This document shows positions 2,355 to 49,303 of a stretch of 64,000 bases of DNA, piece by piece; position 1 is the first letter of the stretch, and the number at the start of each line of letters is the position of its first letter. Source of the DNA: Candidatus Woesearchaeota archaeon (GTDB lineage: Archaea; Nanobdellota; Nanobdellia; SCGC-AAA011-G17; GW2011-AR18). The position numbers and the translations under genes were made by a program. The stretch covers positions 40,058-104,057 of the forward strand of contig JAGVZM010000003.1 in NCBI GenBank assembly GCA_018302545.1, written 5' to 3'. A model generated the notes under the pieces. That model saw only the letters and a list, made by a program, of their open reading frames with translations. It searched no databases and was not told the DNA's origin.

Positions 2355-3700
2355 TCTAGTTCGCAATAACACTCTACTCCTTTAGGTCTGAGTGAATTGC
2401 GAAAATATATTCTCCAATATGTCTCTTATAGAACAATGGTGGACGACACGACAAGGGATACGCGCGTAGAACTTATAAACTAAAATTCCTAAATAATTCT
2501 AATGTTAAAAACTTACAAATTCAGAATATATCCAAACAAAAAACAAGAGATAAAACTATTAGAAACTCTAAATCTTTGTAGGTTCACCTACAATAAACAA
2601 TTAGAACTAAAGATAAACAAATATAAAGAAAATAAAGTAAATTTAACACAATTTGATCTAAATAATAACTTAATAATACTAAAAGAAGAAAATAAAGAAT
2701 TAAAACAAATTCATTCTCAAACATTACAAGATATAAATAAAAGAATTAGTTTAGCTTTTAATGGATTTTACAGAAGATTAAATAAAAGAGAACAAGTAGG
2801 TTTTCCTAGATTCAAAAGTAAATATAGATATGATTCAATAACATATCCTCAATCTGGATTCAAATTAGAAAATCAGCTTTATATTTCTAAAATAGGACAA
2901 ATAAATATTATTAAACACAGAGAAATAGAAGGTAAAGTTAAAACCTTAACAATTAAGAAAACTTCTACAAACAAATGGTTTGCATGTTTCTCAGTAGAAC
3001 AAGAAAGTAAGAGTCACTCTAATCTAACAAATGAAGAAACAATTGGAATAGATCTAGGAATAAATCACTTTTATGCAGATTCTAATGGAAATCTAGTAGA
3101 TAATCCAAAATATCTAAGAAAATCAGAGTTAAAGTTAAAGAAATTACAAAGAAAACATTCTAAAAAGTTAAAAGGTTCTAATAATAGAAATAAATCTAGA
3201 TTAAAACTAGCTAATCTACATGAATTAATAAGTAATCAAAGAAATGACTTCTTACATAAACAATCAAGACAATTAGTTAATAATTATAATACAATAGTAG
3301 TAGAAAGATTACAAATAAGTAATATGACTAAAAACCACTATTTAGCTAAATCTATAAATGATGCTTCTTGGAATAAGTTTCTACAACTACTTTCTTACAA
3401 AGTGGAAGAGACTGGTGGAAAGTTAGTAGAAATAGATCCAAGAAATACTAGTCAATTATGTATTTGTGGCAATAAAGTAGAAAAATCATTAGCTACTAGA
3501 GTGCATAGATGCAATAATTGTGGAATAGAAATGGATAGAGATCTTATGTCTGCTTTGATTATTAAGGAAAAGGGAATAAATGATTTTAGTATTATTACCG
3601 TAGGAACTACGGGAATTCAAGCCTGTCAGAGAACTTCAATAGAAGTTCAGTGAAGCAGGACGCTCGGTCCCTTTAGGGCCGAGTAGTTCACATAAAAAGA
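2355..3700 (+). mobile_element. IS200/IS605-family insertion sequence, TnpB-only (IS1341-like), about 1.35 kb
   Basis: Left-end hairpin TTCGCAAT(2360-2367)...ATTGCGAA(2396-2403). Right-end hairpin CTCGGTCCCTTTAGGGCCGAG (3663-3683). Both ends share the motif CCTTTAGGnCnGAGT. The ends are GC-richer than the background. Confidence 0.65.
2502..3653 (+). CDS. tnpB: TnpB (OrfB), RNA-guided nuclease of IS200/IS605 family
   Basis: N-terminal YKFRIYPNKKQ motif. RuvC-like segments (IGIDLGI, VVERLQIS). C-terminal zinc finger CICG...CNNCG. Confidence 0.85.
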   Translation: MLKTYKFRIYPNKKQEIKLLETLNLCRFTYNKQLELKINKYKENKVNLTQFDLNNNLIILKEENKELKQIHSQTLQDINKRISLAFNGFYRRLNKREQVGFPRFKSKYRYDSITYPQSGFKLENQLYISKIGQINIIKHREIEGKVKTLTIKKTSTNKWFACFSVEQESKSHSNLTNEETIGIDLGINHFYADSNGNLVDNPKYLRKSELKLKKLQRKHSKKLKGSNNRNKSRLKLANLHELISNQRNDFLHKQSRQLVNNYNTIVVERLQISNMTKNHYLAKSINDASWNKFLQLLSYKVEETGGKLVEIDPRNTSQLCICGNKVEKSLATRVHRCNNCGIEMDRDLMSALIIKEKGINDFSIITVGTTGIQACQRTSIEVQ

Positions 3701-8093: not shown

Positions 8094-8606
8094 TTACTTC
8101 AAAGATTTAATAAGTTTTCCTCTTTCCATTCCAATGATCTCAACTTTTGCATCATTAAACTTAGTTTTGCATCCAAATAGATCATAAAGAAAGATACCTA
8201 AAGCAGCAATCTCAGAATGTGGTTGGTTTCCAACACTTAAATTATAATCACTTAGTTCATAAAATTCCGGTTCTACTTTTTCCCCACCAACAATGATTAA
8301 TATATTATTATCTAATTTATTTTTAAATTCTTTAAAGTCTTTTCCATAAACTGTAAGATGAACAATTACAAAATCTTCTTTTTTCTTTTCTTTAATCAAT
8401 TTAATTTCATTATCACAATATTTAATTTCAAATGGCCCTCCAAATTTATCAACGATTTTTTTAATACTTTCTTCCATATTAGAATCTTTTTGTCCAGAAT
8501 AATATAATTTAGAAGCACCAAAAGCCCTTGCAGTTAGTCCAACATGGCTGCTTACTCTTTTATCCCTGCTTATCCTATGATTTAATCTAAGAATCTCAAT
8601 TTTCAT
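8094..8606 (-). CDS. trm56: tRNA (cytidine56-2'-O)-methyltransferase aTrm56 (SPOUT)
   Basis: N-terminus [26 protein letters not shown] matches the conserved aTrm56 signature [26 protein letters not shown]. C-terminus has [11 protein letters not shown]. Confidence 0.7.
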   Translation of the reverse strand: [170 protein letters not shown]

Positions 8607-11203: not shown

Positions 11204-11590
11204 TTATATATAAGGAATTTGAATTCTTAATCTTTCTTCCTCTTGCGAAATTACAGATCTCAATAATATTTGATCATCTAATTTGGTAAAATCTAATCCT
11301 AATCTCCTTTCTAAATATCTTATCGGATCTGCTGCAACTCTAAATACTAAATCTAAAGGCCCGCCTCTTCTTGTACATCCATAACAAATATATAAATTAC
11401 TTTTAGGCTTTAAGTAAAAAGAAGGTTCTTTCTCATCATGAAAAATACACAAACCTTTATAGTTTGATCCACTTGTTTGTTTTTTTACTCTATCTCCAAT
11501 TAAATCTAATCCAACAAATAAAATATCTAAATTTTCTAATGTTCTAAAAACTAAGTCTTCTTCTCCTCCAAAAAGTAAAAGTTGTTTCAT
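11204..11590 (-). CDS. Stand-alone CHC2 zinc-finger protein (bacterial DnaG primase zinc-binding-domain-like)
   Basis: CIFHDEKEPSFYLKPKSNLYICYGCTRRGG matches the CHC2 finger C-x-F-H-x-E-x-x-P-S-F...Y-x-C-x-x-C. Confidence 0.55.
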   Translation of the reverse strand: MKQLLLFGGEEDLVFRTLENLDILFVGLDLIGDRVKKQTSGSNYKGLCIFHDEKEPSFYLKPKSNLYICYGCTRRGGPLDLVFRVAADPIRYLERRLGLDFTKLDDQILLRSVISQEEERLRIQIPYI

Positions 11591-11595: not shown

Positions 11596-11681
11596 AGCCT
11601 CTGACGGGATTTGAACCCGCGATCTCCGCCTATTTAGACTATTTTACCAAGGCGATGCTCTACCAACTAAGCCACAGAGGC
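11596..11681 (-). tRNA. tRNA-Thr(GGU) with 13-nt intron at position 37/38. No encoded CCA.
   Basis: Manual fold gives acceptor GCCUCUG/CAGAGGC, D-arm with G18G19, anticodon stem UCGCC/GGCGG, loop UUGGUA|A, T-arm GCGGG-UUCAAAU-CCCGU and discriminator U. Confidence 0.85.
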
Positions 11682-12737: not shown

Positions 12738-14159
12738 TTAACCAGCAATCATATATAATCTCTCTCTATATTCAGCGCCTTTACCATCTCTATTAATTTT
12801 ATTTCTTAACTTCCTTAAAGCTTTATAATAATTTTGTTCTACTGCTTGACGGCTTATACCCCATGAACTAGCTATATCAACAAAACTTTCTTTTTTTCCA
12901 GAAAAACCAATTTTTCTCAAAAGTGCATCCCTTTGTCTTTTAGTTAGTTTAGATTCACCCATTAATAATTGAAGATCTGCTCTCAAAGCAAATCTTTCCT
13001 GTCTTAAAAATGATTCTTCTAAATCTACTGAGAATTTCTCATCTTCTAATAATTCAGAGTAGTCCTCTCCATCTTCATTAGACTGAGCATGTATACTGCT
13101 TGTTTTTGGCATCTCTAATAAAACAGTTTCTATTATTTTACATTCTTTAGCAATAACCTCTGATAATGAACCTTCAAAACCATTAAGGTTAGATCCACTT
13201 TCTTTTAGTTTACCAATTAAACCTTCAAAAGTATCACTTTTTTTCCTATCTCTTTTTAATTTTTTAGCTATTTGATGTTCTAAAGATCTTATTGCAACTT
13301 CTTGTTCAGAAGGATCCCTACGTAATTCTTCACTCAATTCTTTTTTAACTCTTTTAATCTTATTATATTTTATACTCCTATCATTAGGTACTCTTATAGT
13401 CCCACTTTGATCTTTTGATCCCCGTATCATATTCCCTCTAATCCTATGCTCTGCATAAGTAAGAAATCTTAAACCAGACCTATGATCATAGAGTTCTACA
13501 GCTCTTTCTAATCCTAAATTTCCTTCTTGAATAGCATCTAAAAGAGATAAGCCCCTTCTTCGTCTTCCATGAGCGAGAGGCACAACTAGATGTAGATTAC
13601 CTTCTATCAACTTACTCTTTATCCCCCTATACATATAAAGATTTTCTTCAATTCCATCTTTGACACTTTTAAACTCTGAATAATCTCCATCCTGAATAAC
13701 ACTTCTAAGATCTGAAGCTGCTTTTCTAATCACAATTGGAGGAATCTCATTAAAGAATCCTCTATATACTTCTTCAGATTTTTCATCACCAATTAGAGCT
13801 TCCATTAATCTTCTATAAGGATGTTTTTCAGGCAAGGAACCAAAACCATCACTTTCAAAATTTTTAATTTGTTCTTTAGAAAATAAACGCGTTTTTGAAG
13901 TTCCCCTATAACTTAAATAGTGTGGAACTAACAAGTACATTCCTGTTCTTCTTGAATAAACTCCTGTTGCTGAATAAGGGAATACTTGTAATTCTGTTGT
14001 AACAAGATAAGAAGCTAAATTATCATGAACAGCTGTTAACTCACCAACAATTCTTCTTTCATCACACTCATCGATCTTAGGTGTTTTAGCAATATTCCTT
14101 AAATATATTGTTTCTGCACTAAGTCCATTATCTGTATTATTTTTATTTTGTTTTTTCAT
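12738..14159 (-). CDS. RNA polymerase sigma-70 family factor (regions 1.2, 2, 3 and 4 all present)
   Basis: Region 2 GLSLLDAIQEGNLGLERAVELYDHRSGLRFLTYAEHRIRGNMIRGSKDQSGTIRVP versus the RpoD consensus [56 protein letters not shown]. Region 4 HTH LTKRQRDALL...ISRQAVEQ. Confidence 0.8.
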   Translation of the reverse strand: MKKQNKNNTDNGLSAETIYLRNIAKTPKIDECDERRIVGELTAVHDNLASYLVTTELQVFPYSATGVYSRRTGMYLLVPHYLSYRGTSKTRLFSKEQIKNFESDGFGSLPEKHPYRRLMEALIGDEKSEEVYRGFFNEIPPIVIRKAASDLRSVIQDGDYSEFKSVKDGIEENLYMYRGIKSKLIEGNLHLVVPLAHGRRRRGLSLLDAIQEGNLGLERAVELYDHRSGLRFLTYAEHRIRGNMIRGSKDQSGTIRVPNDRSIKYNKIKRVKKELSEELRRDPSEQEVAIRSLEHQIAKKLKRDRKKSDTFEGLIGKLKESGSNLNGFEGSLSEVIAKECKIIETVLLEMPKTSSIHAQSNEDGEDYSELLEDEKFSVDLEESFLRQERFALRADLQLLMGESKLTKRQRDALLRKIGFSGKKESFVDIASSWGISRQAVEQNYYKALRKLRNKINRDGKGAEYRERLYMIAG

Positions 14160-14225
14160 AGGATATTCAGAAGAGCTTTAAAAAGTTTTAAAAGACTTGC
14201 GCTATTCAAATATAATTTTAAAAAT

Positions 14226-14368
14226 GGTGCGAGGGGTAGGATTTGAACCTACGGAGGCCTAAGCCACAGGATTTCTCCCATTCGGTCTTAAGTTTGGCAA
14301 AGCTTCAGAGCTTACCTGCCCATCTAGTCCTTCCTTAAGGAAGATTGACCAGGCTCTGGTACCCTCGC
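14226..14368 (-). tRNA. Intron-containing class-II-like tRNA (Leu/Ser type, isotype unresolved), 143 nt, CCA encoded
   Basis: Acceptor GCGAGGG/CCCUCGC + A + CCA. T-arm GUAGG-UUCAAAU-CCUAC. D-loop GAGCCUGGUCAAU. Variable hairpin GGC-UUAG-GCC. About 55 nt of extra sequence contains two tetraloop hairpins. Confidence 0.6.
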
Positions 14369-14522: not shown

Positions 14523-14966
14523 ATGATAACTGAAGTTACAGCAGATATATTAGAACTTAAAGTAAATGCTATAGCTCATGGTTGTAATACTCAAGGGATT
14601 ATGAATGCAGGTTTGGCTAAGGTCTTAAAAGAACGTTTTCCAATAATGTATAAAGAATATAAAGCCTATTGTGAAACAGAAATGTTTAATCCAGGGGATA
14701 TACATTTTTATAGAAACCCAAAAGGACCAAATATTATAAATATAGCAACACAAATTGAACTAGAGAAGGGTGCAAGATTAGATTATATTGAAGAAGGCTT
14801 AAAAAAAATTGAAGATTCTTATTCAAGATGGGGAATAAATTCATTAGCAGTACCAAGAATTGGTTGCGGTCTTGGAGGTCTAGCTTGGAGAGATGTTAGA
14901 AGAGTTATATACTCTATTTTTGGTTCTTCTAATTTAGATGTAAGGGTTGTAACAAAGCCACATTAA
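14523..14966 (+). CDS. Macro-domain protein (ADP-ribose binding/processing)
   Basis: VNAIAHGCNTQGIMNAGLAKVL resembles the macro-domain N-terminal motif. About 147 aa. Confidence 0.55.
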   Translation: MITEVTADILELKVNAIAHGCNTQGIMNAGLAKVLKERFPIMYKEYKAYCETEMFNPGDIHFYRNPKGPNIINIATQIELEKGARLDYIEEGLKKIEDSYSRWGINSLAVPRIGCGLGGLAWRDVRRVIYSIFGSSNLDVRVVTKPH

Positions 14967-15436
14967 AAGGACAATTTTTCAGCAATGTTCTTAATTACCT
15001 CTTCAGCTTCTAATCCTCCCTTTATAGCATATTTTAAAGGATGATTTTTTTGTACTTTTATAAATACTCTATAAGTCGGGACAGTAAATGTAACCTCAAA
15101 CTTAATTCCAATATCTGTAGCCCCAATTAAGTGTCTTATTTCAGATTCACTAATAGAATTAAAATCATCTTCTACAAAATATATGTGATGTTCAGGGCTT
15201 AGAGCAGTAAACTGTCTATACTGTCTTATTTGAGTACCAAGTTCTCTTGTAGTAAAGTGTTGTCCTTTAATTATAACATTTTTTCCATCCAATAAAAATC
15301 CAGATATCTCTCTTTCATCTACAAATAATTTTTTATTCTTAATTTCTATTTGACATTTATAAGCGTCTAGATTACCCAATTCTATTATTTGATCTAATGG
15401 AATATATTGGGGTCCTTTTGTTGATGGTCTTCTCAT
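14963..15436 (-). CDS. Hypothetical protein
   Basis: ORF only. Confidence 0.4.
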   Translation of the reverse strand: MRRPSTKGPQYIPLDQIIELGNLDAYKCQIEIKNKKLFVDEREISGFLLDGKNVIIKGQHFTTRELGTQIRQYRQFTALSPEHHIYFVEDDFNSISESEIRHLIGATDIGIKFEVTFTVPTYRVFIKVQKNHPLKYAIKGGLEAEEVIKNIAEKLSF

Positions 15437-16085: not shown

Positions 16086-18674
16086 TCATTTTAACAAATC
16101 TACATCATGATGTCTGCTTTCTTTCATTCCAGCACCAGTAATCCTAATAAACTCTGCATTTTTCCATAACTCATTAATACTCTTAGATCCACAATAACTC
16201 ATCCCACTTTTCAATCCACCAATTAATTGGTAAATAACTTCTGTAACTTTCCCTCTATAAGGAATAGTCCCCTCAACGCCTTCAGGAACAACATCACTTA
16301 TGTCTGCATCATCTTTACCACTTTCTCTTTCTTTCTTACTTTTATTTGCACCAAAACCAGCCATTCCCCTATAAATTTTATATTTCCTTCCTTCCTTTAT
16401 TATTGTTTGTCCAGGACTTTCATCAGTTCCTGCTAACATATTTCCTAACATAACTGTAGAAGCTCCAGCTGCTAAAGCCTTAACAATATCTCCAGATTGT
16501 TTAATTCCACCATCAGCAATAACTGTAATTCCCACTTCATTCGCAACTTTAGCAGAATCCATAACAGCCGTTAATTGAGGCACACCACAACCAGTCTGAA
16601 TTCTAGTTATACAAATTGAATTATGAACTATTGCATTATTTGCTATAAAACTATGAGTAGGACAATCTATTTCCAAATCATAAACTTTAACACATAAATC
16701 TGTTTTTTCATTTTTTAATAATTTTACAACTTGATAATCTTCAGATAATCTTTTTTCTCCTGTATTTATTATTTCAGAAATATAACTTTGGCTAAAATTA
16801 TCCAAATTAGCATTTTTCAAATTACCTTTACTAATTTTCTTTTTTTGATTATTTGGAAATACACCTTTTAATAAATAGTGAACAATATTAAATAATTCTA
16901 TTAATTTTATTGAAGTATTTGAAAATCTTATTCTTCCCCTTTCTTCTATATTTCCATCTGTATCAATTAAACCATCTAAAATACCTTGCAAATATTCTCT
17001 ATTATTAATTAAATATTTTTGTGGTAATTCTTTATTTTTCTTTTTTCCAAAAGATTGTAAAAAATCTGAAAACGGTTTATAATATAAAATAACTTGAATT
17101 ATATTCTCTTTATATGTTACTTTACATTCTTTATTAAAGATATTTATTATAAATTTCATTAATTTATTAACTTTATCAATTTCATGCTTCCCAAAATACC
17201 ATCTAACAGAACCAACACGAGAATTTTTCTTTGAAATGCCGCTATGTGAAGACCCATCACCTAAAAATGTTCCAAAAATATAACCTAATTCATAACAAGG
17301 TTCAAGACTTACATCATTTAGATATTTATATCGAATTATCCAATTACCCCCAACTCTTTTTTTCAAATTAATTTTAAAATATTGTTCTAGTTCAAACTTT
17401 ATTTCTCTAGGAATTAATAAAACATCTTGTCTAAAATCTTTTACTTCTTTCCACTTGTATTTTGAAGCTTTAGGAATTGTTTTGCTTTGTTTTTGTAATA
17501 ATCTTACATAACCCCTACTTTGTATAGTTTCAATTGAAGAAGTATTCAAGTCTCCTACCCAATACCTATGTTCTGGAGTTACATGGGTTTCTTCATAAAA
17601 TATAGAGTTTCTAATTTTTCTAACTTCTTTAATTCCAGTACAAAATGCTTTTTTAACATTCACAGGTTCTCCATTCTTATTTATTACTCTTTCACCAGCC
17701 TTAATTTCTTCAATATTTTTATAAATTCCATTAGACATTAATACCCTAGTTCCTGCAGCAAAACAGCCCCCTCCAACTCCGACCTTAATACAATCTGCTC
17801 CCGCATTAATTAAATCTAAAGTTCCTTCAGCTGTAGCAACATTTCCAGCAATTATTTGAACATCTCCAAATCTATCTTTAATATTTTTTATAGTAGAAAG
17901 AGTCATATCATGATGTCCATGCGCAACATCTATACAAAGAACATCACATCCAACCTTAATTAAAGCTTCAGTTCTATCCAAATAATCTCCTTTAACCCCA
18001 ACAGCAGCACCAACTAATAATCTCCCTTTCTTATCTTTAGTAGCCAGAGGATGTTTCTCTCTATTAGTTATATCCTTAGCAGTAATTAACCCTTTTAAAA
18101 TTCCTTTACTATCAATTAAAGGAAGTTTCTCAATTTTATTTTGCTTTAATATTTCTTTTGCATTTTCAATATCTTTATTTATGTCACCAATAATTGATTT
18201 TTCTTTTGGAGTCATCAAATCTTTAATTTGTTTTAATAAATTGTCCTCAAACATCATATCTGTGTTTGTTAAAATTCCCACATATCTTCCAACATTATCT
18301 GTAATGGGAATTCCTGTAATATTTTTATCCTGCATTAAAATTTTAGCATCTTTTAAATTATGTTCTGGAGTTAAAGTATAAGGATTCTCTATTACAATTG
18401 CTTCTGATCTTTTAACTTTTAAAATTTCTTTAACTTGGTCGTCTATAGTTAAAAATCTATGAATAATTCCAAGACCCCCTTGTCTTGCCATTTCAATTGC
18501 CATTGCACTTTCCGTAACAGTATCCATATTGGCGCTTATTATAGGCATATTTAGTTTAATTTTATTAGTTAAAAAAGAACTTATATCAACATTTTTTCTA
18601 GAATATATATTGGAAAGTTTAGGAACTAATAAAACATCATCATAAGCTAATGCCTCTCTTATTTCATTATTCAT
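16086..18674 (-). CDS. guaB: Inosine-5'-monophosphate dehydrogenase containing an in-frame intein
   Basis: N-extein carries IMPDH and CBS domains. Catalytic loop VGVGGG|SICITR is split by 382 aa starting with Cys and ending HN. The intein holds two LAGLIDADG blocks. Confidence 0.9.
16620..17765 (-). other. Intein (382 aa) with LAGLIDADG homing-endonuclease domain, inserted at the IMPDH catalytic-Cys loop
   Basis: N-terminal Cys1 (CFAAGTRV). C-terminal ...IVHN with +1 Ser. Endonuclease blocks [13 protein letters not shown] and [14 protein letters not shown]. Confidence 0.8.
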
Positions 18675-18735: not shown

Positions 18736-21087
18736 TTAGAAACTACCTAAATCTAATTGCTTATTACCTTTTAATACATCCTCAAAATTAGTATTGAAAA
18801 AAACAAGAATTGAATCAGCAATAGGTTGTATCTGTCTTTTAATATAATGTTCATAATCGATTTTACTTTTCATCTTCTCTACAGGTTCTGGACCGTCTTC
18901 TGTGATTACATATTTTATTTTATTTGATTCTATTATCCCCCCTCTTTCTAAAAGTTTTCTAGCAGACAAAATGTGGGGTGGTGTAATCTTAGTGTATTCT
19001 TTTAAATCTTTCCTAATACTTTTAGTATAAACTAACATCTCATCATATTTTCCTTTTCTAACATCATCTACAAACTTCTTTGTAAATTTAACAACATCTT
19101 TATTATGAAAGACTCTATCTAATAATTCTTCTTGATATTTTTTAGCTAATTCAGTCCAATCAGATCTCACGGTTTCAAGTCCAGTAAATTCAATTTCCTC
19201 TTTTCCATTCTTAATGACTAAACCCGCATATCTCTTTTTAGCTCCCTCTTCCCTACCTCTAAGTTTAGGCATTAAACATTTAATGAAACATTTTTCATAC
19301 CTCAATTCTAAATAACTTTGACGTTTATACTCTTCTTTAATTAGATGATCATAAAATTCATTTATGTGTTTTTGAATCTTCTTTCCAATCTTATCTGCTT
19401 CTTCTAAATTTTTTGCTTTAGAAACTACAAATGAGCTGTCTGTGTCTTGATAAATTACTTCATAACCTAATTTTTCAATTTCTTTAGAAGTTAATTGAAT
19501 AATATATTGACCAAAATGAGTGATTGCATTTGCAACATTCATATCAAAAAATCTACAACTAGGAGAAGCTAAAACTCCAAAGAAAGAATTACTCAAAATC
19601 TTAATTGCATATCTTGTTAATTCATCTTTTTCTTTTCTTGCTTTTTCCCTTTCATGATATAATTCCGTTAAGATTATTGGCATTATTCCATCTTCATTTC
19701 TAAAGCAAGCTCCATTGGGTGCTTTGATTAAATTTTTACCTTTACAATATTCAACATAAGAGTAAGGATCAATATTAAAACTTCTCATCATACTAGGATA
19801 CAGACTTTTAAAATCTAAAATTAGAATATAATCGTAAATTCCAGGTTTACTCTCCTTAACATATCCCCCTTTAATTGGTTCCTCCTTCAAAGCGAATTTA
19901 GCACTAGGACAAACAATCTTTCTCTTTGTAGTCTCTCTTATATACAAAGAGTCAAGCGAAGCAATTGAAGCATTTACTCTATCTAAGGGCATACCTGTTA
20001 ATAAACTTCTTAATATAGTTAATTCAAATACTCCGCTCTTTTCTAAAATTCTTAATACTAAATCTGCATCTTTAAGATTATATGCAGCTAATTTTTTCTT
20101 ATTATTTCTCCATAGATCATCAATTTCTAAGTATTTATCATGTCCTGTAGTTTTGATTAATTTACCATCCCCTAAAATCTCTCCAGCTACAGTATCAAGT
20201 TTGAAATCTTTAGGTTTAATAAAAGAAACCTTCAATAAATTCAAACCATCTAAAACTTGCCTTCCAATAACATCAACTTTACTATCTTTAAAAAAATCAC
20301 TCTCAATTCTCAACTTAACTTTAGATCTCTCTCTGCCAAAATCAAAAGGAACTTTTAATTTATCACATTTTCCCTTTAAATAATCTAAATCAAAATCAAT
20401 AACATTCCAACCAGTAATAACATCAGGATCTAACTCTATAATATCATTAATAAAATTCTCAAGAACATTAGTTTCACCATTGCAAGAAATAGCACCTTCA
20501 ATTTTATCTTTAGAATTAATGAAAACTTTATTTACATTTCCACAAACATAACCTATGCAATATAATTCATCATTTTTAGGATCACCTTTACTACTTTCTA
20601 TATCAAAACTTAAAATCTTAATATTCTTCGGTTTATAATTATGAATTCCTATTATATCTGGCTCCTTATAAATTCTATCAACTCTTTCACCTATTTCATA
20701 TTCCCCCTCTATCTCTAAACTTCCTTGAATATCATGATCCATCATAAACCTATAAGAAAATCTTATATCTGCTTCATAACTTTCAATTCCTACTTCTGAA
20801 AACTGTTTTTTTAATTTAGGAACTTCTGCAGGAATATCCAAAAAAATCTTAATTACTTTATTGCCATTAAAATTTTGAAAATCGTCATCACTTACTTCAA
20901 AATCAGTTATACCCTTAGCTAATTTTAAATCTTGTTTTTTAATATAAAAATAAGGTTTATAAGAATTAACTGTTAGAAAACTTTCCCCATTCTCTAATCT
21001 TCCATATAAACAAACAAAAGATTTTCCACCAATTACTTTATATGTGGGATAAATAACAAAACCTTTCATAATGATAAAATGTATCAA
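18736..21087 (-). CDS. polB: Family B DNA polymerase
   Basis: Exo I FDIES. Pol motif A DFKSLYPSMM. Motif B KILSNSFFG. Motif C YQDTDS. Confidence 0.9.
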   Translation of the reverse strand: MIHFIIMKGFVIYPTYKVIGGKSFVCLYGRLENGESFLTVNSYKPYFYIKKQDLKLAKGITDFEVSDDDFQNFNGNKVIKIFLDIPAEVPKLKKQFSEVGIESYEADIRFSYRFMMDHDIQGSLEIEGEYEIGERVDRIYKEPDIIGIHNYKPKNIKILSFDIESSKGDPKNDELYCIGYVCGNVNKVFINSKDKIEGAISCNGETNVLENFINDIIELDPDVITGWNVIDFDLDYLKGKCDKLKVPFDFGRERSKVKLRIESDFFKDSKVDVIGRQVLDGLNLLKVSFIKPKDFKLDTVAGEILGDGKLIKTTGHDKYLEIDDLWRNNKKKLAAYNLKDADLVLRILEKSGVFELTILRSLLTGMPLDRVNASIASLDSLYIRETTKRKIVCPSAKFALKEEPIKGGYVKESKPGIYDYILILDFKSLYPSMMRSFNIDPYSYVEYCKGKNLIKAPNGACFRNEDGIMPIILTELYHEREKARKEKDELTRYAIKILSNSFFGVLASPSCRFFDMNVANAITHFGQYIIQLTSKEIEKLGYEVIYQDTDSSFVVSKAKNLEEADKIGKKIQKHINEFYDHLIKEEYKRQSYLELRYEKCFIKCLMPKLRGREEGAKKRYAGLVIKNGKEEIEFTGLETVRSDWTELAKKYQEELLDRVFHNKDVVKFTKKFVDDVRKGKYDEMLVYTKSIRKDLKEYTKITPPHILSARKLLERGGIIESNKIKYVITEDGPEPVEKMKSKIDYEHYIKRQIQPIADSILVFFNTNFEDVLKGNKQLDLGSF

Positions 21088-21718: not shown

Positions 21719-23554
21719 CTATAAACTTTTAGGCGTAAGAGAAATTTCTTGAGAAACATCAACTTTTTCATCTCCTAAATAACCACCATAAAATTTATAC
21801 ATTGTTGTAGGATCAATATAAGCGCTATAGTTCTTTCTTTCAATTTTAAAATCTAATTTAAAACCAAAGTGCAAATGGACTCCACTCTTACCTTTAACCC
21901 TCCCAGTTCTTCCCATCTGCATAAGATCCTGTCCTAAACCAACTTGATCTAAAGGAGAAACATTAAAAGTATTAGGAACACCATGCAAATAGAATGTTTC
22001 AAATCCTAATTCAGGTTTACCATGTCTAACTTTAACATAATAACCATTAATATTATCTGAACCAGTATCTACAACAACCCCATCCATCACTGAATATATA
22101 GGATCTCCTTGAACTCCAGCTGTAGCAGGAGCAATGTCTATACCGTTATGGTGTCTTCCCCACCTTACCCCAAAATAAGAATTTATCTCAGTATTGACAG
22201 TAGGCCAACCTACACCTTGTTTTAAAGTCAAATAATAAGCCATTACTCTCCTTACATAATCATTTGTTTGATAAGTAAGATGATGTAAAACATCCCAGAT
22301 ATCATTGCTTCCAGCTTTTAGTTTTGCTTCTTTAACTTTTTTAGGACCAGCATTGTAATTTGCTAAAATCTCTACTAAAGAATCTTCTCCTGATGATGGG
22401 GAGTATCTACTATAAAGAGCAATACTATACACCGCTGCTCTTATATTTTCAGATGGATCATTTTTTACTTTATCCCAAGAAAATTCTTCACCACTCAAAA
22501 CCCCGCTTCTAATCAACCTATTTAATTCATCAACATTAATTCTTGTTTGTTGAGTAAGTCCATAAGCATCTTCTCCAGATTTTTTTACTTTTCTTTTCTT
22601 CCCATCAAAGTGTTTGAAATCTCCAGATTCAACAATTGCAATGGCTCTTCCAAAATCAGGATCAACCTCAAAATTATTTCTTTGATTAAATCTTTCTGCA
22701 TGATAGGCAAATGCATCCCAATAAGTTAATTGACCTTGTTCAAAAACATAACCTTCTCTACCTCTCCTTATTTCTTCTTTTCTTTTAATCTCCATTCTAG
22801 GAAGTTCAGGAATTTTTATTCTTTCAACCAAGCCGCTAATATCAGGAGTAGTTAATCCTGGTCTTTCAAGTGCAGCATGTGCAGCGCTAACTGAAAATAA
22901 AGCATATAATAAAGGGACTTTAGATGCCATCCTATTCCTTGCAGGAATCTTAGCTTTTTTTCTATTAAAATATCTTGACAAATCTCTACCAACTTTAACA
23001 CCCAATCCTGAAATTAATCCACCAACACCTAATTTAACCAAATCAAAATCATCTATAACAGTATAACCTAAATGTAAAGTTCCAGCACCAGCCACAAGAG
23101 GTAAAAGATATTTATTATTAACAAATTTATTTTCAGTCAAAAATCTCCTAGCATCAACAATTTTTTGATGCACCTTTCTTAATGCTCCTTTACCTTTAAC
23201 AACATAACTTCCTTTACTTTGATCATATAATCTATATAAATTAATACCTGTAGGAACTGCAATTCCAAATATTCCTGTTAAGCTAGCACCCCATTCTAAT
23301 ATAGAATAAGTTGTATCTCCAATAAACATTCCCATTTGAGTGCTTTCAACACTTAAAGCAAGACCTGCAGCACCAGGAATTAACCATTTCTCAACATGGG
23401 GCTTTATATCTCTTAATGTAGAGTTAAGTCTATCATCTAATTTACCAATTCCTTTTAAGAGTATATCTAATCCCATAACAATACAATTACCACAACTAAG
23501 TAGAAAATTTATAAAGATTTGTATAAGATAAAATTTGTCACTAATAAGAGACAA
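21719..23554 (-). CDS. Membrane-anchored peptidoglycan hydrolase with lytic transglycosylase (SLT) and M23 peptidase domains
   Basis: SLT motif ES...GLTQQ. M23 motifs HNGIDIA and HLHFG. N-terminal TM segments. GC-richer. Confidence 0.7.
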   Translation of the reverse strand: MSLISDKFYLIQIFINFLLSCGNCIVMGLDILLKGIGKLDDRLNSTLRDIKPHVEKWLIPGAAGLALSVESTQMGMFIGDTTYSILEWGASLTGIFGIAVPTGINLYRLYDQSKGSYVVKGKGALRKVHQKIVDARRFLTENKFVNNKYLLPLVAGAGTLHLGYTVIDDFDLVKLGVGGLISGLGVKVGRDLSRYFNRKKAKIPARNRMASKVPLLYALFSVSAAHAALERPGLTTPDISGLVERIKIPELPRMEIKRKEEIRRGREGYVFEQGQLTYWDAFAYHAERFNQRNNFEVDPDFGRAIAIVESGDFKHFDGKKRKVKKSGEDAYGLTQQTRINVDELNRLIRSGVLSGEEFSWDKVKNDPSENIRAAVYSIALYSRYSPSSGEDSLVEILANYNAGPKKVKEAKLKAGSNDIWDVLHHLTYQTNDYVRRVMAYYLTLKQGVGWPTVNTEINSYFGVRWGRHHNGIDIAPATAGVQGDPIYSVMDGVVVDTGSDNINGYYVKVRHGKPELGFETFYLHGVPNTFNVSPLDQVGLGQDLMQMGRTGRVKGKSGVHLHFGFKLDFKIERKNYSAYIDPTTMYKFYGGYLGDEKVDVSQEISLTPKSL

Positions 23555-25111: not shown

Positions 25112-26893
25112 ATGAGAAAAGTATTAGCTATTGTAGAAAAAGACAAATGTCATCCAGATAAATGTCAGCATGAATGTATGAAATATGATCCAATAAATAA
25201 AACAGGGGGAGAAGGATTCCATATTAGTGAAGAAACCAAAAAGGCATGTATAAGCGATTCTGTAGTTATGGAAATGCATAAGATTTCAGCAAAAAAATGC
25301 CCCTTTCATGCAATTCACATTGTTAATCTGCCTGAAAAATTAAAAGAAGATCCAATACACAGTTATGGTTTAAACTCATTCGAGCTTTATTCACTGCCTC
25401 ATGTAAAAGAAAAGACAGTAGTTGGAATAATTGGAAGAAATGGAATTGGAAAATCTTCAGCATTACAATTTTTAACAGGAACTATAAAACCAAATTTAGG
25501 AAATTATCAAAAGCCTCTAAAAGAAAATGAAATAATTGAGAGATATTCAAATTCTTGGGTGGGAGAATATTTCAAAAAATTACTAAATAAACAATTAAAA
25601 ATTGCTTACAAACCTCAGCGTGTGGAGTTGCTCACTTCAATTTACAAAGGATATACTGTAAAAGAATTATTAAGCAAAGTAGATGAAAGAAAAATAATTC
25701 ACACACTATTAAATGATTTAGATATCCCAACAATAGAAAATAGAAAAATAGAAGAATTATCTGGTGGAGAATTACAAAGAGTTGCGATAATTGCAACAGT
25801 AGCTAAAAAAGCTGATGTTTATTATTTTGATGAGCCCTCATCTTTTTTGGATATAACTCATAGGATAAAAGCTGCTAGATTAATAAGATCTTTAGCTGAA
25901 AATTCTTCTGTTGTAGTAGTTGAACATGACTTAGCCACATTGGATTATATATCAGATGAAATCCAAATTGTTTATGGAGAACAAGCATGTTACGGTATAT
26001 TCTCTCAATCTAAAGCAGTAAGAAGAGGTATTAATGAGTATATGGAAGGTTTTCTACCTGATGAAAACATAAAGTTCAGACCATACTCAATAAAATTTGA
26101 AGAGCGCCCCATAGATAAATTTGTCTCACAAGAATTAATTTTAGAATTTCCAGAATTAGAAAAATCATATACATCATTTAAATTAAAAACCTCTCCTGGA
26201 AAATTACACAGAGGAGAAGTATTAACAATTATGGGAGCGAATGGTTTAGGCAAATCTACATTCTTAAAACTACTTTCAGGATTAGAAATTTCAGATAAAG
26301 GAAAATTAGAAAAGGTAAGGATAAGTTATAAACCTCAATACTTAAAAAATGATATTGAGGGTAATGTAGAGGATTATCTCAAGGGAATAGCAGGTTCTGA
26401 ATTCAATTCTTCTTGGTTCAAAGCGAATATTTTAGAAAAACTGAATATACAATCAATTTTACAAAATAAAATTTCTGAACTATCTGGAGGAGAATTACAA
26501 AAAGTTCACATAGCTGCTTGTCTAGCTTGTCCAGACAAAGATATAATAACAATGGATGAGCCTTCTGCTTTTATAGATGTAGAAGATAGATTAAATGTAG
26601 CAGAGATAATTAAGGATTTTGTAATAAACAAAAACATCGCAGCAATAATTGTAGATCATGATATCCAATTTATAGATTACTTAGCAGATTCTATGTTAGT
26701 CTTTGAAGGAACTCCTGCAAAGGAGGGACATGTTTTAGGAACTTTATCTAAAAGAGAAGGAATGAACAAAGTTCTAAAAGATTTAGATATTACTTATAGA
26801 AGAGATAAACAAACTGGTAGACCGCGTATCAATAAACCAGGTTCTCAATTAGATCAAGAACAAAGACATAAAGGGGAACATTACTATATCTAA
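25112..26893 (+). CDS. abcE1: ABCE1 (RNase L inhibitor, RLI), ribosome recycling ATPase with twin ABC domains
   Basis: N-terminal CHPDKC...KCPFHAIHIVNLPE, two Walker A/B domains and signature LSGGELQ. Several Fe-S ligand cysteines are replaced. Confidence 0.85.
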   Translation: MRKVLAIVEKDKCHPDKCQHECMKYDPINKTGGEGFHISEETKKACISDSVVMEMHKISAKKCPFHAIHIVNLPEKLKEDPIHSYGLNSFELYSLPHVKEKTVVGIIGRNGIGKSSALQFLTGTIKPNLGNYQKPLKENEIIERYSNSWVGEYFKKLLNKQLKIAYKPQRVELLTSIYKGYTVKELLSKVDERKIIHTLLNDLDIPTIENRKIEELSGGELQRVAIIATVAKKADVYYFDEPSSFLDITHRIKAARLIRSLAENSSVVVVEHDLATLDYISDEIQIVYGEQACYGIFSQSKAVRRGINEYMEGFLPDENIKFRPYSIKFEERPIDKFVSQELILEFPELEKSYTSFKLKTSPGKLHRGEVLTIMGANGLGKSTFLKLLSGLEISDKGKLEKVRISYKPQYLKNDIEGNVEDYLKGIAGSEFNSSWFKANILEKLNIQSILQNKISELSGGELQKVHIAACLACPDKDIITMDEPSAFIDVEDRLNVAEIIKDFVINKNIAAIIVDHDIQFIDYLADSMLVFEGTPAKEGHVLGTLSKREGMNKVLKDLDITYRRDKQTGRPRINKPGSQLDQEQRHKGEHYYI

Positions 26894-38756: not shown

Positions 38757-39512
38757 ATGGAAACAAAAATATTAGAAGAAATTGGTTTAACACCTGGAGA
38801 AATAAAAGTTTATTTAGCTTTAATCGGCTTAGGAGAAACAACAACAGGACCAATAGTTGATGAAGCTAGAGTCTCAATATCTAAAGTTTATTCAATATTA
38901 GAAAGATTATCTAAAAAAGGTTTAGTAAGCCATGTTGTAAAAAATAATGTAAAATATTTTAAAGCAGCAGATCCAAACAGATTATTAATTTACTTGCAAG
39001 AAAAAGAAGAACATCTAAAAAAACAAGAGCAAGAATTAAAAAAATTTATTCCAGAACTAGAATTAAAACAAAATTCTGCTGTAACTCAAGAAACAGCACA
39101 AGTATTTGATGAATTAAGAGGAATACAAACTGCAAGAGAAAGAACTTTAAAAATTATGAAAAAAGGAGACGAGATGTGGATTATCGGAATTGCAAGAACA
39201 CCCTATGATAAATTAACAGCTTACTTTAAAGATTATCACGAAAGAAGATTCAGAAAAGGAATAAAATGTAAATATCTTTATAATGAATATGCAAAAAATC
39301 CCTTTGGTCAAGAAGCTTCAAAATTTCCATTAAGTGAAGTTAAATATATGCCAGAAGAAATGATAACTCATGCTTGGATGGAAATATATGCCGATACAGT
39401 TACTATTGGTATAAATTTTAAAAAAACTTTTTCTATTGTAATACAAAATCAAGATGTAGCTGATTCATTTAGGAATTATGCTAAATTGCTTTGGAGTATT
39501 GCTAAAAAATAA
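38757..39512 (+). CDS. TrmB-family transcriptional regulator
   Basis: N-terminal LTPGEIKVYLALIGLGETTTGPIVDEARVSISKVYSILERLSKKGLV. Confidence 0.7.
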   Translation: METKILEEIGLTPGEIKVYLALIGLGETTTGPIVDEARVSISKVYSILERLSKKGLVSHVVKNNVKYFKAADPNRLLIYLQEKEEHLKKQEQELKKFIPELELKQNSAVTQETAQVFDELRGIQTARERTLKIMKKGDEMWIIGIARTPYDKLTAYFKDYHERRFRKGIKCKYLYNEYAKNPFGQEASKFPLSEVKYMPEEMITHAWMEIYADTVTIGINFKKTFSIVIQNQDVADSFRNYAKLLWSIAKK

Positions 39513-46308: not shown

Positions 46309-46733
46309 CTAAACATCCCTATCAACATCGGTTTTGTATAATCATAAACAGTAAATCTAGATCCTATATTTAACCTTTCTTCTTGACATCTAACAAAATC
46401 ATAAAAAGTTCTAACCAAATCTCCTGCTCTTTGTAAATGTTCTAAATCAGGATTTTTTATATAATTACAAACAGATCTGCATAAAGCTCTTCTAATTCTA
46501 TTCCTTTTCTCTTGGCTTTCACCTAATTCTCTTAAATAATCAACTGCTTCTTCAACATAAGTGGCTAAATTTGTTATAGCTTTATTATCTATACCAAAAG
46601 CATCAAATTCTAAAACAAAAGATTTCCTGCCTAAAAATTTGCTTTCATTTGCATCTAAAAAAGAAATAAATCTATCAACAAGTTCTCTATCATCTGAAAA
46701 TTCAGCCTTTGCAAGAGCTTCTTTAAATTTCAT
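46305..46733 (-). CDS. Hypothetical protein inserted between dnaK and dnaJ
   Basis: ORF only. Overlaps dnaJ start. Confidence 0.45.
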   Translation of the reverse strand: MKFKEALAKAEFSDDRELVDRFISFLDANESKFLGRKSFVLEFDAFGIDNKAITNLATYVEEAVDYLRELGESQEKRNRIRRALCRSVCNYIKNPDLEHLQRAGDLVRTFYDFVRCQEERLNIGSRFTVYDYTKPMLIGMFR

Positions 46734-46759
46734 AATAAAAAATGAAAGGTTATAACCTC

Positions 46760-49159: not shown

Positions 49160-49303
49160 TTTTTATATAAATTACCCCCTCTTGAATAATTGAACATAGG
49201 TTGAAATACCGTTTTATAACTAATATTACTAGGACTATACATATTTGATTTACTTATACAATATTTTGTCCCGCTTCCTTCATTTCCATGAGCATTGCAC
49301 ATT

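What the first reader, a model, noticed from the sequence alone, without database searches (positions are those of the whole stretch)
12738..14159. A complete bacterial-type sigma-70 factor encoded in an archaeal genomic context
The 473-aa protein has unmistakable sigma-70 regions 1.2, 2.1-2.4, 3 and 4. The region 2 match to RpoD spans about 55 residues. Yet the surrounding contig is archaeal: ABCE1, Rpp21, aTrm56, TrmB regulators, archaemetzincin, BHB-intron tRNAs and a stand-alone 5S rRNA. Archaea use TBP/TFB, and a sigma factor would have no cognate bacterial core RNAP. Possible explanations are a recent transfer remnant, a factor acting on a bacterial host's RNAP during episymbiosis, or a repurposed DNA-binding protein. 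The gene is intact and GC-richer than the background.
Basis: partly seen in the sequence, partly recalled or inferred. Interest (0 to 1): 0.8.

Follow-up and report, generated by a model that had tools for sequence, protein, structure and literature searches.

The report
Bacterial-type sigma factor in Woesearchaeota archaeon
An intact, highly diverged copy of the bacterial transcription-initiation factor sigma-70 sits in the chromosome of a tiny DPANN (Woesearchaeota) archaeon; the oddity is real, but it was published in 2021 and its function is still unknown.

Summary
Window 12738-14159 (-) is an intact 473-aa sigma-70-family protein. The contig is archaeal: aTrm56, ABCE1, Rpp21, TrmB regulators, and intron-bearing tRNAs 66 bp upstream and 1.06 kb downstream of the gene. 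It is not a chimera. An independent assembly, 99.89% identical over 13 kb, has the same gene order, and there is no GC, tetranucleotide or codon-usage break. It is not recent or "GC-richer": the gene is fully ameliorated, has the same TATA-like box as its neighbours, and shares a lineage-specific ~130-aa insert with a second Woesearchaeota sigma on a 638-kb contig.

It is not new. The exact protein is GenBank MBS3167932.1, annotated as a sigma-70 family factor of a Candidatus Woesearchaeota archaeon. Castelle et al. 2021 (PMC8204110) already reported sigma-70 genes in DPANN, mainly Woesearchaeota, ruled out mis-binning and left the function open.

My additions: the protein keeps the RNAP-clamp-binding helix 2.2 and the sigma-2 and sigma-4 folds, but it has replaced almost every housekeeping promoter-reading residue (WW to HR, Q437G, H455D, E458I, E585Q, R586A, R588E). 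It also carries an insert in the sigma-3/sigma-4 linker. Canonical -35/-10 sites are depleted nearby. I infer a domesticated, repurposed regulator; the mechanism is untested.

The parts
12738..14159 (-). Intact sigma-70-family gene, 473 aa (identical to GenBank MBS3167932.1)
   Evidence: ORF; Pfam and NCBIfam; exact-sequence look-up; structure and fold
14001..14120 (-). Region 1.2-like helices (aa 14-53)
   Evidence: Y18, L19 and E33 conserved against homologs; helices 14-24 and 30-53 at pLDDT 81-95; no Pfam r1_2 hit
13650..14000 (-). Lineage-specific insert between regions 1.2 and 2.1 (aa ~54-170), shared only with Woesearchaeota sigma P0126 (motif LPE-x3-YRRL-x-E-x-L-x-G)
   Evidence: 30-31% identity over 115-184 aa with P0126 and no match in 38 bacterial-type homologs; P0126 is the only hit in the exhaustive search that aligns from residue 16
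13404..13649 (-). Sigma-2 domain (regions 2.1-2.4, aa ~171-252). Core-binding helix 2.2 is retained; the -10 reading and melting residues are replaced (WW to HR, Q to G)
   Evidence: Pfam r2 at 40.9 bits; residue audit; alignment to SigA; pLDDT 86-95
13242..13403 (-). Sigma-3 domain (aa ~253-306). The extended -10 residues H455/E458 are replaced by D/I
   Evidence: Pfam r3 at 23.9 bits, just under the cutoff
13026..13241 (-). Sigma-3/sigma-4 linker (region 3.2) with an extra segment of about 45-50 aa (aa ~307-378), low model confidence
   Evidence: Alignment gap relative to all homologs; pLDDT 31-60 with an extra helical hairpin 310-347
12789..13025 (-). Sigma-4 domain, helix-turn-helix (aa ~379-457). 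R584 and Q589 equivalents are kept; E585, R586 and R588 are changed to Q, A and E
   Evidence: Pfam r4 at 22.8 bits; TIGR02937 above its cutoff; pLDDT 87-97
14187..14194 (-). TATA-like box CTTTTAAA, 35 nt upstream of the ATG (putative archaeal promoter element)
   Evidence: The same [CG]TTTWWAW box lies at -35..-30 in 10 of 62 genes, against about 1.5 expected for that slot; sequence
14225..14368 (-). 144-nt class II (Leu-like) tRNA gene with an intron of about 50 nt and an encoded CCA, 66 bp upstream of the sigma start; an archaeal context marker
   Evidence: aragorn intron mode; brute-force intron removal; present in independent assembly L002
11596..11681 (-). tRNA-Thr(GGU) with a 13-nt intron at the canonical 37/38 position; an archaeal context marker 1.06 kb downstream of sigma
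   Evidence: Rfam tRNA at 60 bits; aragorn -i
11204..11590 (-). Stand-alone 128-aa bacterial DnaG-type CHC2 zinc-ribbon protein; a possible relic of a co-transferred bacterial dnaG-rpoD operon (inference)
   Evidence: Pfam Zn_ribbon_DnaG at 2e-15; BLASTP E=1e-10 against a bacterial DnaG encoded directly upstream of rpoD

Best explanation
What it is (largely shown): a genuine, intact descendant of a bacterial primary-type (RpoD-like) sigma-70 gene. A Woesearchaeota (DPANN) lineage captured it long ago, and it is now a domesticated chromosomal gene. It has the host's base composition and codon usage and the host's TATA-like promoter box. It sits between archaeal intron-bearing tRNA genes. It shares a lineage-specific ~130-aa insert between regions 1.2 and 2.1 with a second, less diverged Woesearchaeota sigma. 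It belongs to the set of DPANN sigma-70 genes reported by Castelle et al. 2021.

How it most likely works (inferred, not shown): it is no longer a conventional housekeeping initiation factor. The sigma-1.2, sigma-2, sigma-3 and sigma-4 folds are kept, and so are the helix 2.2 residues that in bacteria dock sigma onto the RNAP clamp coiled-coil (L402, D403, Q406, E407, N409 equivalents). Nearly all residues that read and melt TTGACA/TATAAT promoters are replaced, the sigma-finger linker carries an insert, and sigma-70 consensus sites are depleted in the surrounding DNA. The ORF has stayed open under AT-rich mutational pressure, so it is under selection. The most likely role is a repurposed transcription regulator acting inside the archaeon. 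It would bind DNA of a new specificity through its sigma-4 HTH and sigma-2 surfaces, and possibly dock on the structurally homologous clamp coiled-coil of the archaeal RNAP. My confidence in the identity part is about 0.9, and in the intracellular-regulator mechanism about 0.35-0.4.
For: Sigma identity. Archaeal host: aTrm56, ABCE1, PolB, Rpp21, TrmB, intron-bearing tRNAs, and the GenBank label 'Candidatus Woesearchaeota archaeon' on a 186-kb contig. Not chimeric: independent ENA assembly L002 is 99.89% identical over 13,011 bp with the same gene order, and a third read-level assembly fragment exists (P0001). Ameliorated: tetranucleotide distance at the 70th percentile, GC at the 77th, GC3 0.143, codon log-likelihood -0.79 against -0.75 +/- 0.08. 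Old, lineage-specific family: the insert is shared only with P0126. P0126 lies among L15e, RtcB and NurA on contigs of 208 and 638 kb, and its C-terminal half is 55-59% identical to bacterial RpoD. Residue audit: the query keeps 58 of 112 near-invariant positions (P0126 keeps 89); losses concentrate in DNA-reading positions while helix 2.2 is kept. Archaeal-type TATA box at -35, shared with 9 other genes. Sigma-70 consensus promoters are depleted: 81 against 104.7 +/- 9.7. Chance of a 473-codon ORF staying open in this composition: about 4e-18. No anti-sigma, no Mza partners, no virion genes nearby. Prior literature: PMC8204110.
Against: Nothing here shows that the protein is expressed, binds DNA or touches any RNAP. 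The residues kept in helix 2.2 are the ones that fit a bacterial beta-prime coiled-coil. That is more simply explained by a bacterial RNAP partner than by an archaeal one, and no archaeal RNAP is known to accept a sigma. Loss of the W-W dyad and the -35 residues is also normal for functional alternative (group 3/4) sigmas, so it does not prove loss of initiation function. The rest of the genome was not available, so the absence of bacterial rpoA/B/C rests on the literature, not on a test here. Only two members of the insert-bearing family were found, so conservation-based inference is thin. The TATA-box argument rests on a simple motif in an AT-rich genome.
Confidence: 0.5

Rival explanations
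1. Cross-domain effector. The archaeon is an episymbiont of bacteria and delivers the sigma into its bacterial host. There it binds host core RNAP through the conserved helix 2.2 and either sequesters it or redirects it to non-canonical promoters, as phage-encoded sigmas do.
For: The beta-prime coiled-coil docking residues are kept while the DNA-reading residues have changed. A secreted-type M23 peptidase plus SLT lytic transglycosylase, directed at bacterial cell walls, is encoded 7.5 kb away at 21719-23554. Castelle et al. argue that small-genome Woesearchaeota may be episymbionts of bacteria. The best PHROG hit is a phage sigma family at 8e-32.
Against: The N-terminus (MKKQNKNNTDNGLSAE...) is hydrophilic with no signal-peptide-like segment. 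No secretion or injection apparatus lies next to the gene. No protein transfer from a DPANN archaeon to a bacterium is known (my knowledge). The PHROG match is generic to all sigmas.
Confidence: 0.2
2. Functionless relic. The gene is a leftover of an old transfer, drifting without a role because no cognate core RNAP exists.
For: Extreme divergence: only 58 of 112 near-invariant positions are kept, best bacterial identity is <=35%, and only 4 hits fall below 1e-30 among 1.8 billion representatives. Canonical promoter-reading residues are lost.
Against: A 473-codon frame stays open although stop codons arise at about 0.08 per random codon here (P about 4e-18). Composition is fully ameliorated, which implies long residence. 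All domain folds are confidently predicted. The substitutions are patterned, with helix 2.2 and the structural core kept, not uniform. A homolog is likewise intact in a second Woesearchaeota genome.
Confidence: 0.08
3. The sigma belongs to an integrated virus, plasmid or defence island rather than to the core chromosome. The neighbourhood is rich in nucleotide metabolism, PolB, a lysin-like gene, tRNAs, an intein, a DarG-like macrodomain and a primase zinc finger.
For: The neighbourhood content resembles huge-phage auxiliary gene sets. There are MzaA hits (NCBIfam 8e-31, PADLOC 9.5e-19) and a DarG-type macrodomain next door at 4e-38. tRNA genes flank the gene.
Against: There is no capsid, terminase, portal or integrase, and no Mza partner proteins. 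The MzaA matches cover only the generic sigma-2/sigma-3 domains. There is no composition break. ABCE1, aTrm56 and intron-bearing tRNAs are interleaved. The P0126 homolog sits in an unrelated core-gene context that includes ribosomal protein L15e.
Confidence: 0.05
4. Artefact: a bacterial fragment mis-assembled or mis-binned into an archaeal contig, or the organism is really a bacterium with its own rpoBC.
For: The sequence is metagenome-derived, and the sigma and several neighbours (NrdR, DnaK/J/GrpE, M23/SLT) are bacterial-type.
Against: Two independent assemblies give the same junctions. An intron-bearing archaeal tRNA lies 66 bp from the start codon. Composition and codon usage are indistinguishable from the neighbours. 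aTrm56, ABCE1 and Rpp21 have no bacterial counterparts (established knowledge). The published study also ruled out mis-binning for this gene family.
Confidence: 0.02

Closest known systems
Sigma-70 genes of DPANN archaea (fam00359, 'particularly prevalent in Woesearchaeota'), Castelle et al. 2021, Front Microbiol, PMC8204110
   Same: A sigma-70-family ORF on contigs with archaeal markers, Woesearchaeota host, no anti-sigma partner, function unknown. The exact protein is deposited as MBS3167932.1, 'sigma-70 family RNA polymerase sigma factor [Candidatus Woesearchaeota archaeon]'.
   Different: Nothing in kind. The paper gives no residue-level or architectural description. The shared 1.2/2.1 insert, the linker insert, the loss of -10/-35 reading residues with retention of helix 2.2, and the archaeal-type promoter box are described here.
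Bacterial primary (group 1) sigma factor RpoD/SigA
   Same: Domain order 1.2, non-conserved insert, 2, 3, 3.2 linker, 4. Best HMM and PDB matches are RpoD/SigA. Helix 2.2 is conserved. The relative P0126 is 55-59% identical to bacterial RpoD in its C-terminal half.
   Different: Scores are far below the equivalog cutoffs (109.9 against 354 bits for RpoD_Cterm). The W433/W434, Q437, H455, E458, E585, R586 and R588 equivalents are replaced. There is no region 1.1. An extra insert sits in the 3.2 linker. The host uses an archaeal RNAP, and no bacterial core genes are seen in the window.
Alternative (group 3) sigmas such as FliA/SigF
   Same: The region 2.3-2.4 sequence 'YAEHRIRGNMIRG' lacks the W-W dyad, as group 3 sigmas do (comparison from my knowledge of those families). 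TIGR02980 SigBFG hits at 1.7e-17.
   Different: Those are short (about 230-260 aa), lack region 1.2 plus the long insert, work with bacterial core RNAP and usually have anti-sigma partners. All their family cutoffs are missed.
Phage-encoded sigma factors (PHROG 351) and MzaA of the Mza defence system
   Same: Divergent sigma-70-fold proteins encoded outside a normal bacterial housekeeping context; hits at 8e-32 (PHROG), 8e-31 (NCBIfam MzaA) and 9.5e-19 (PADLOC MzaA).
   Different: The matches are limited to the generic sigma domains. There are no viral structural genes and no MzaB-E partners nearby, and the host is an archaeon.

Membership tests
Sigma-70 superfamily (Pfam Sigma70_r2/r3/r4; NCBIfam TIGR02937) | Sigma-2 domain (regions 2.1-2.4) detected above the curated threshold | tested here: met
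   PF04542 scores 40.9 bits against a cutoff of 24, covering profile positions 1-69 of 71
Sigma-70 superfamily (Pfam Sigma70_r2/r3/r4; NCBIfam TIGR02937) | C-terminal sigma-4 helix-turn-helix domain in the same chain | tested here: met
   PF04545 alone is marginal (22.8 against 24.1). TIGR02937, spanning 182-454, scores 61.9 against a cutoff of 42.9. Residues 391-458 align to region 4 of SigA. pLDDT is 87-97.
Sigma-70 superfamily (Pfam Sigma70_r2/r3/r4; NCBIfam TIGR02937) | Binds bacterial core RNAP and directs promoter-specific initiation | not testable with these tools
   This needs biochemistry. Only the conservation of helix 2.2 docking residues can be reported.
Primary (group 1) sigma RpoD/SigA | Score above the RpoD equivalog cutoffs | tested here: not met
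   TIGR02393 RpoD_Cterm scores 109.9 against 354. All RpoD/SigA equivalog and subfamily models score about 3-10 times below their cutoffs.
Primary (group 1) sigma RpoD/SigA | Invariant -10/-35 reading and melting residues (E. coli W433, W434, Q437, H455, E458, E585, R586, R588; numbering from my knowledge) | tested here: not met
   They are replaced by H, R, G, D, I, Q, A and E at positions that are >=92% conserved in 38 homologs
Primary (group 1) sigma RpoD/SigA | Region 1.2 followed by a non-conserved insert before region 2 | tested here: inconclusive
   The architecture is present in the alignment and the model, but PF00140 gives no hit
Primary (group 1) sigma RpoD/SigA | Same genome encodes bacterial core RNAP (rpoA/B/C) | not testable with these tools
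   There is none in the 64-kb window. The literature reports the expected archaeal TBP, TFB and TFE in DPANN.
DPANN archaeal sigma-70 genes (Castelle et al. 2021, fam00359) | Sigma-70-domain protein co-encoded with taxonomically informative archaeal genes on one contig | tested here: met
   aTrm56, ABCE1, Rpp21 and intron-bearing tRNAs are on the same contig. The arrangement is confirmed in an independent assembly.
DPANN archaeal sigma-70 genes (Castelle et al. 2021, fam00359) | Host assigned to DPANN/Woesearchaeota | tested here: met
   GenBank names the organism Candidatus Woesearchaeota archaeon for the identical protein. I built no marker-gene phylogeny of my own.
DPANN archaeal sigma-70 genes (Castelle et al. 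2021, fam00359) | Formal membership of the published family fam00359 | not tested
   The family's member list is not in the supplementary text held
MzaA (Mza anti-phage system) | Full-length MzaA match plus adjacent MzaB-E genes | tested here: not met
   NCBIfam scores 107.6 against a cutoff of 800. The PADLOC hit covers only residues 175-273, and no other Mza component is found among the neighbours.
Phage-encoded sigma factor | Encoded within a viral genome or provirus with structural and packaging genes | tested here: not met
   There are no capsid, terminase, portal or integrase hits among the neighbours, only generic sigma, primase, polymerase and lysin families

The most novel reading that the evidence does not exclude
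The sigma is an active cross-system transcription component, in one of two ways. It may have been co-opted onto the archaeal RNAP clamp coiled-coil, making a hybrid sigma/TFB-type initiation or regulation mode. Or it may be exported to seize the bacterial host's core RNAP during episymbiosis. The selective retention of the helix 2.2 docking residues, while every promoter-reading residue has changed, is compatible with either and is not excluded by anything found here.
Probability: 0.2. Interest if true: 0.85.

Novelty: already known. Interest (0 to 1): 0.35.

Why it matters
Sigma factors and the TBP/TFB system are the textbook divide between bacterial and archaeal transcription. A sigma that is conserved and under selection in an organism with only an archaeal RNAP therefore poses a real unanswered question: what does it bind? 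The phenomenon has been in the literature since 2021 and this protein is already annotated, so the finding adds no new kind. Its value is as a well-characterised test case. It is chimera-free and has defined domain boundaries. It has a clear pattern of retained clamp-docking residues and lost promoter-reading residues. It also has a less diverged sister protein (P0126) for comparison. These features make binding experiments and AlphaFold-Multimer tests against bacterial and archaeal RNAP straightforward to design.

Tried and rejected
(1) Two GTDB genome scans found no relatives, one with the whole protein and one with the N-terminal insert alignment. The source genome and its relatives could not be reached that way, so I built no marker-gene taxonomy of my own.

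(2) A profile search with the two-sequence insert alignment returned nothing, not even the seed proteins. I treat this as uninformative, not as evidence of absence.

(3) A degenerate DNA pattern for LPE-x3-YRRL-x-E-x-L-x-G in JGI metagenomes gave 19 loci. Only P0126's own contig encodes a sigma, so no further family members were recovered.

(4) The top three hits of the exhaustive search (P0121-P0123) are not close relatives. They are proteins with a duplicated region 2 that score twice.

(5) Donor lineage: organism names were unavailable for the best full-length hits. Their contexts are ordinary bacterial dnaG-rpoD loci. No donor could be named.

(6) Mza defence system and phage origin: rejected.

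(7) dnaG-rpoD operon relic: the window has a DnaG zinc-ribbon ORF 1.1 kb from sigma, but the order is inverted. The ORF upstream of P0126 is not DnaG-like. I keep this only as a lead.

(8) Enrichment of sigma-70 consensus promoters: rejected, since the sites are depleted.

(9) A supplement search for fam00359 found nothing in the held text.

(10) dN/dS was not possible. There are no substitutions in the sigma gene between the two assemblies, and P0126 is saturated.
Full report
**OBSERVATION**

It is a sigma-70-family protein by every test.
- Pfam: Sigma70_r2 scores 40.9 bits (cutoff 24). Sigma70_r3 (23.9 against 25.3) and Sigma70_r4 (22.8 against 24.1) fall just under their cutoffs.
- NCBIfam: TIGR02937, the sigma-70 superfamily model, is above its cutoff (61.9 against 42.9) across residues 182-454. 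RpoD/SigA/SigC-type models reach 1e-37 but stay 3-10 times below their equivalog cutoffs.
- PDB sequence search: 63 solved sigma chains match at E<=1e-5. The best is a cyanobacterial SigA1 at 1.5e-28, aligned over residues 167-317 and again over 391-458.
- Structure: an AlphaFold2 model built on a 40-sequence alignment has mean pLDDT 71. Sigma-1.2/sigma-2 (85-95) and sigma-4 (87-97) are confident, sigma-3 is moderate, and two insert regions are low. Foldseek against the PDB returns only sigmaA/sigma70 chains from holoenzyme and open-complex structures at probability 1.0.

**IS THE CONTEXT ARCHAEAL, AND IS THE JUNCTION REAL?**

Pfam annotation of about 60 ORFs shows archaeal or archaeo-eukaryotic markers along the whole window:
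- aTrm56 (8094-8606)
- family B DNA polymerase (18736-21087)
- ABCE1/RLI (25112-26893)
- TrmB regulators (38757-39512, 58838-59590, and weakly 50105-50545)
- Rpp21 (61855-62193)

These are interleaved with many bacterial-type genes: NrdR, DnaK/DnaJ/GrpE, and an M23 plus SLT murein hydrolase.

ARAGORN's default mode found no tRNA, and Rfam found one. With introns allowed, two appear. The first is tRNA-Thr(GGU) at 11596-11681, with a 13-nt intron at the canonical 37/38 site. The second is a 144-nt class II (Leu-like) tRNA at 14225-14368, with an intron of about 50 nt, only 66 bp upstream of the sigma start codon. Short introns of this kind are an archaeal feature (established knowledge).

A 5S rRNA candidate at 56229-56404 aligns end to end with the Rfam model. 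It carries a 68-nt insertion, which drops it below the gathering score (33.9 against 38).

The sigma gene is not a compositional outlier:
- GC is 0.313, against 0.291 +/- 0.023 for windows of the same size (77th percentile).
- Tetranucleotide distance is at the 70th percentile.
- GC3 is 0.143.
- Synonymous-codon log-likelihood is -0.79, against -0.75 +/- 0.08 for 46 genes.

So 'GC-richer than background' is not supported, and there is no tetranucleotide break.

The exact 473-aa sequence is GenBank MBS3167932.1, 'sigma-70 family RNA polymerase sigma factor [Candidatus Woesearchaeota archaeon]', on a 186,493-bp contig. An independent ENA megahit assembly (ERZ4903137, k141_420971, 19.8 kb) carries the gene between the same neighbours: TK, M23/SLT, PolB, intein-bearing IMPDH, dUTPase, macrodomain, sigma, cytidine-deaminase-like gene and DnaG zinc ribbon. 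It is 99.89% identical over 13,011 bp, with no difference inside the sigma gene. A third, read-level assembly from SRR3989338 contributes a fragment covering residues 1-359 with one substitution. Chimerism is therefore very unlikely.

**PRIOR KNOWLEDGE**

Castelle et al. [quoted passage not shown] They state that mis-binning was ruled out by the phylogeny of co-encoded proteins. They found no anti-sigma factors, and they conclude that the mechanism remains unclear given the expected archaeal TBP, TFB and TFE. I found no functional follow-up in the library. The phenomenon is therefore known, and this protein is already annotated as such.

**HOW DIVERGED IT IS, AND ITS RELATIVES**

A word-indexed search gave no relative above 35% identity, over about 60% of the length. 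An exhaustive phmmer run against 1.84 billion representatives gave 45,385 hits at E<=1e-3 but only four below 1e-30. One of the four is the gene itself. The other three (P0121-P0123) are artefacts with a duplicated region 2.

The informative hit is P0126 (666 aa, PIN74203.1), from Candidatus Woesearchaeota archaeon CG10, GCA_002762785.1, on contigs of 208 and 638 kb. It is the only listed protein that aligns from query residue 16 through 318. The ~130-aa segment between region 1.2 and region 2.1 is 30-31% identical between the two, with a conserved LPE-x3-YRRL-x-E-x-L-x-G motif. None of 38 bacterial-type homologs has a counterpart. The spacing from region 1.2 to 2.1 is 169 and 177 residues in these two, against 37-119 in those bacterial-type homologs where both anchors were found.

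P0126 lies among ribosomal protein L15e, RtcB and a NurA-like gene, in a context that is not syntenic with the window. Its C-terminal half is 55-59% identical to RpoD of Nitrospira, Myxococcota and other bacteria. I read this as one old capture of a bacterial primary sigma in Woesearchaeota, followed by vertical descent with very unequal divergence. This is an inference from the shared insert, not from a tree. Attempts to find more members failed.

**RESIDUE-LEVEL ANATOMY**

At 112 alignment positions where at least 90% of 38 bacterial-type homologs agree, P0126 keeps 89 and the window protein only 58. The losses are patterned. E. coli numbering below is from my knowledge of sigma-70; the substitutions themselves are visible.
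- **Retained:** helix 2.1-2.2 is largely intact (N187, L188, L190-V192, A195, R201, G202, L206, D207, I209, Q210, E211, G212, N213, G215, L216, A219). These include the equivalents of E. coli L402, D403, Q406, E407 and N409, which dock sigma on the beta-prime clamp coiled-coil.
- **Replaced, -10 melting and reading:** W433/W434 to H237/R238, Q437 to G241, R448 to G252.
- **Replaced, extended -10:** H455 to D259, E458 to I262.
- **Replaced, -35 recognition helix:** E585 to Q437, R586 to A438, R588 to E440. The R584 and Q589 equivalents are kept.

In addition, a segment of about 45-50 aa with an extra helical hairpin interrupts the sigma-3/sigma-4 linker, the sigma-finger region. Region 1.1 is absent. 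Loss of the W-W dyad also occurs in functional group 3/4 sigmas (my knowledge). These changes therefore argue against housekeeping specificity, not against any DNA-dependent function.

**EXPRESSION SIGNALS AND TARGETS**

A TATA-like box [CG]TTTWWAW starts at -35..-30 from the start codon in 10 of 62 genes. About 1.5 would be expected for a 6-nt slot at the intergenic density. The sigma gene has CTTTTAAA at -35 (14187-14194). This suggests that the gene is driven by the host's archaeal-type promoter with a very short leader (inference).

Sites resembling the sigma-70 consensus (TTGACA, 16-18 nt, TATAAT) are fewer than in dinucleotide-preserving shuffles in 5-25 kb: 81 against 104.7 +/- 9.7. There is no sign of a canonical sigma-70 regulon nearby. 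There is no sigma paralog in the window and no anti-sigma domain among the annotated ORFs.

**SELECTION**

In this composition a random codon is a stop with probability about 0.081, so a 473-codon frame stays open by chance with P about 4e-18. Complete amelioration implies long residence, so this argues for purifying selection and against a functionless relic.

**RIVALS TESTED**
- **Defence system:** the MzaA hits cover only the generic sigma-2/sigma-3 part, and none of the neighbours scanned matches an Mza model. The neighbouring macrodomain is DarG-like, but no DarT was seen.
- **Virus:** PHROG hits are generic (sigma, primase, polymerase, lysin), with no virion or packaging genes.
- **Operon relic:** the bacterial hits P0014 and P0016 sit directly downstream of full-length dnaG, the classic dnaG-rpoD operon. 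The window has a stand-alone 128-aa DnaG-type zinc-ribbon ORF on the same strand, 1.1 kb from sigma, with BLASTP E=1e-10 to such a DnaG. The order is inverted, however, and the ORF upstream of P0126 is not DnaG-like. This is only a lead.

**VERDICT**

The best-supported account is an old, domesticated, strongly remodelled RpoD derivative under selection in a Woesearchaeota chromosome. My committed but untested mechanism is an intracellular regulator. It would use the sigma-4 and sigma-2 surfaces on DNA of a new specificity, and possibly dock on the archaeal RNAP clamp coiled-coil. The main rival is an effector that binds a bacterial host's core RNAP; the retained helix 2.2 fits that rival at least as well. 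Which RNAP, if any, it binds is the decisive unknown.

Noticed in passing
window 11204-11590 (-): A stand-alone 128-aa protein consisting of the CHC2 zinc-binding domain of bacterial DnaG primase (Pfam 2e-15; BLASTP 1e-10 to a bacterial DnaG). It is on the same strand as sigma and 1.1 kb away. In bacteria dnaG directly precedes rpoD, so this may be a rearranged relic of a co-transferred dnaG-rpoD operon.
   Followed up: partly
window 14225-14368 (-): A 144-nt class II (long variable arm, Leu-like) tRNA gene with an intron of about 50 nt and a genomically encoded CCA. Default ARAGORN and Rfam both miss it. The splice position and anticodon are ambiguous (AAG or UAA solutions score alike).
   Followed up: partly
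window 56229-56404 (+): A 5S rRNA candidate that aligns to the whole Rfam model but has a 68-nt insertion where the consensus has 4 nt. This puts it below the gathering score (33.9 against 38 bits). It may be an intron or an expansion segment in a DPANN 5S rRNA.
   Followed up: partly
window 14523-14966 (+): A 147-aa stand-alone macrodomain transcribed divergently from the tRNA/sigma unit. It matches the DarG antitoxin macrodomain strongly (PADLOC 4e-38; PHROG 335 at 1e-38). No DarT-like partner was detected; the overlapping convergent 157-aa ORF at 14963-15436 has no family hit.
   Followed up: partly
window 16086-18674 (-): An IMP dehydrogenase interrupted by an intein with a LAGLIDADG homing-endonuclease domain (Hint, Intein_splicing and LAGLIDADG_3 hits between the two halves of IMPDH).
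   Followed up: no
window 21719-23554 (-): A 611-aa protein combining an SLT lytic transglycosylase and an M23 peptidase, both enzymes that degrade bacterial peptidoglycan, in an archaeon. It fits the published idea that some Woesearchaeota attach to or prey on bacteria.
   Followed up: no
window 11.2-32 kb: An unusually dense block of nucleotide-salvage and replication genes: tandem-domain cytidine deaminase-like, dUTPase, IMPDH, PolB, thymidine kinase (401 aa, with an N-terminal extension), a 602-aa dCTP deaminase, bacterial-type NrdR and a ribonucleotide reductase with a TSCPD domain.
   Followed up: no
window 45196-50036 (-): A complete bacterial-type GrpE-DnaK-(two small ORFs)-DnaJ chaperone cluster, as reported for many DPANN. 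A relaxed aragorn run also calls a tRNA-His inside dnaK (47906-47978), which is probably spurious.
   Followed up: no
window 2502-3653 (+): An IS605-family OrfB/TnpB (Cas12f-like TNB domain) transposon-associated gene near the left end of the window.
   Followed up: no
L004 7845-9926 (+) (Woesearchaeota GCA_002762785.1): A 693-aa ORF with no detectable family lies 75 bp upstream of, and co-directional with, the second Woesearchaeota sigma (P0126). It is not DnaG-like. It could be a lineage-specific partner.
   Followed up: partly
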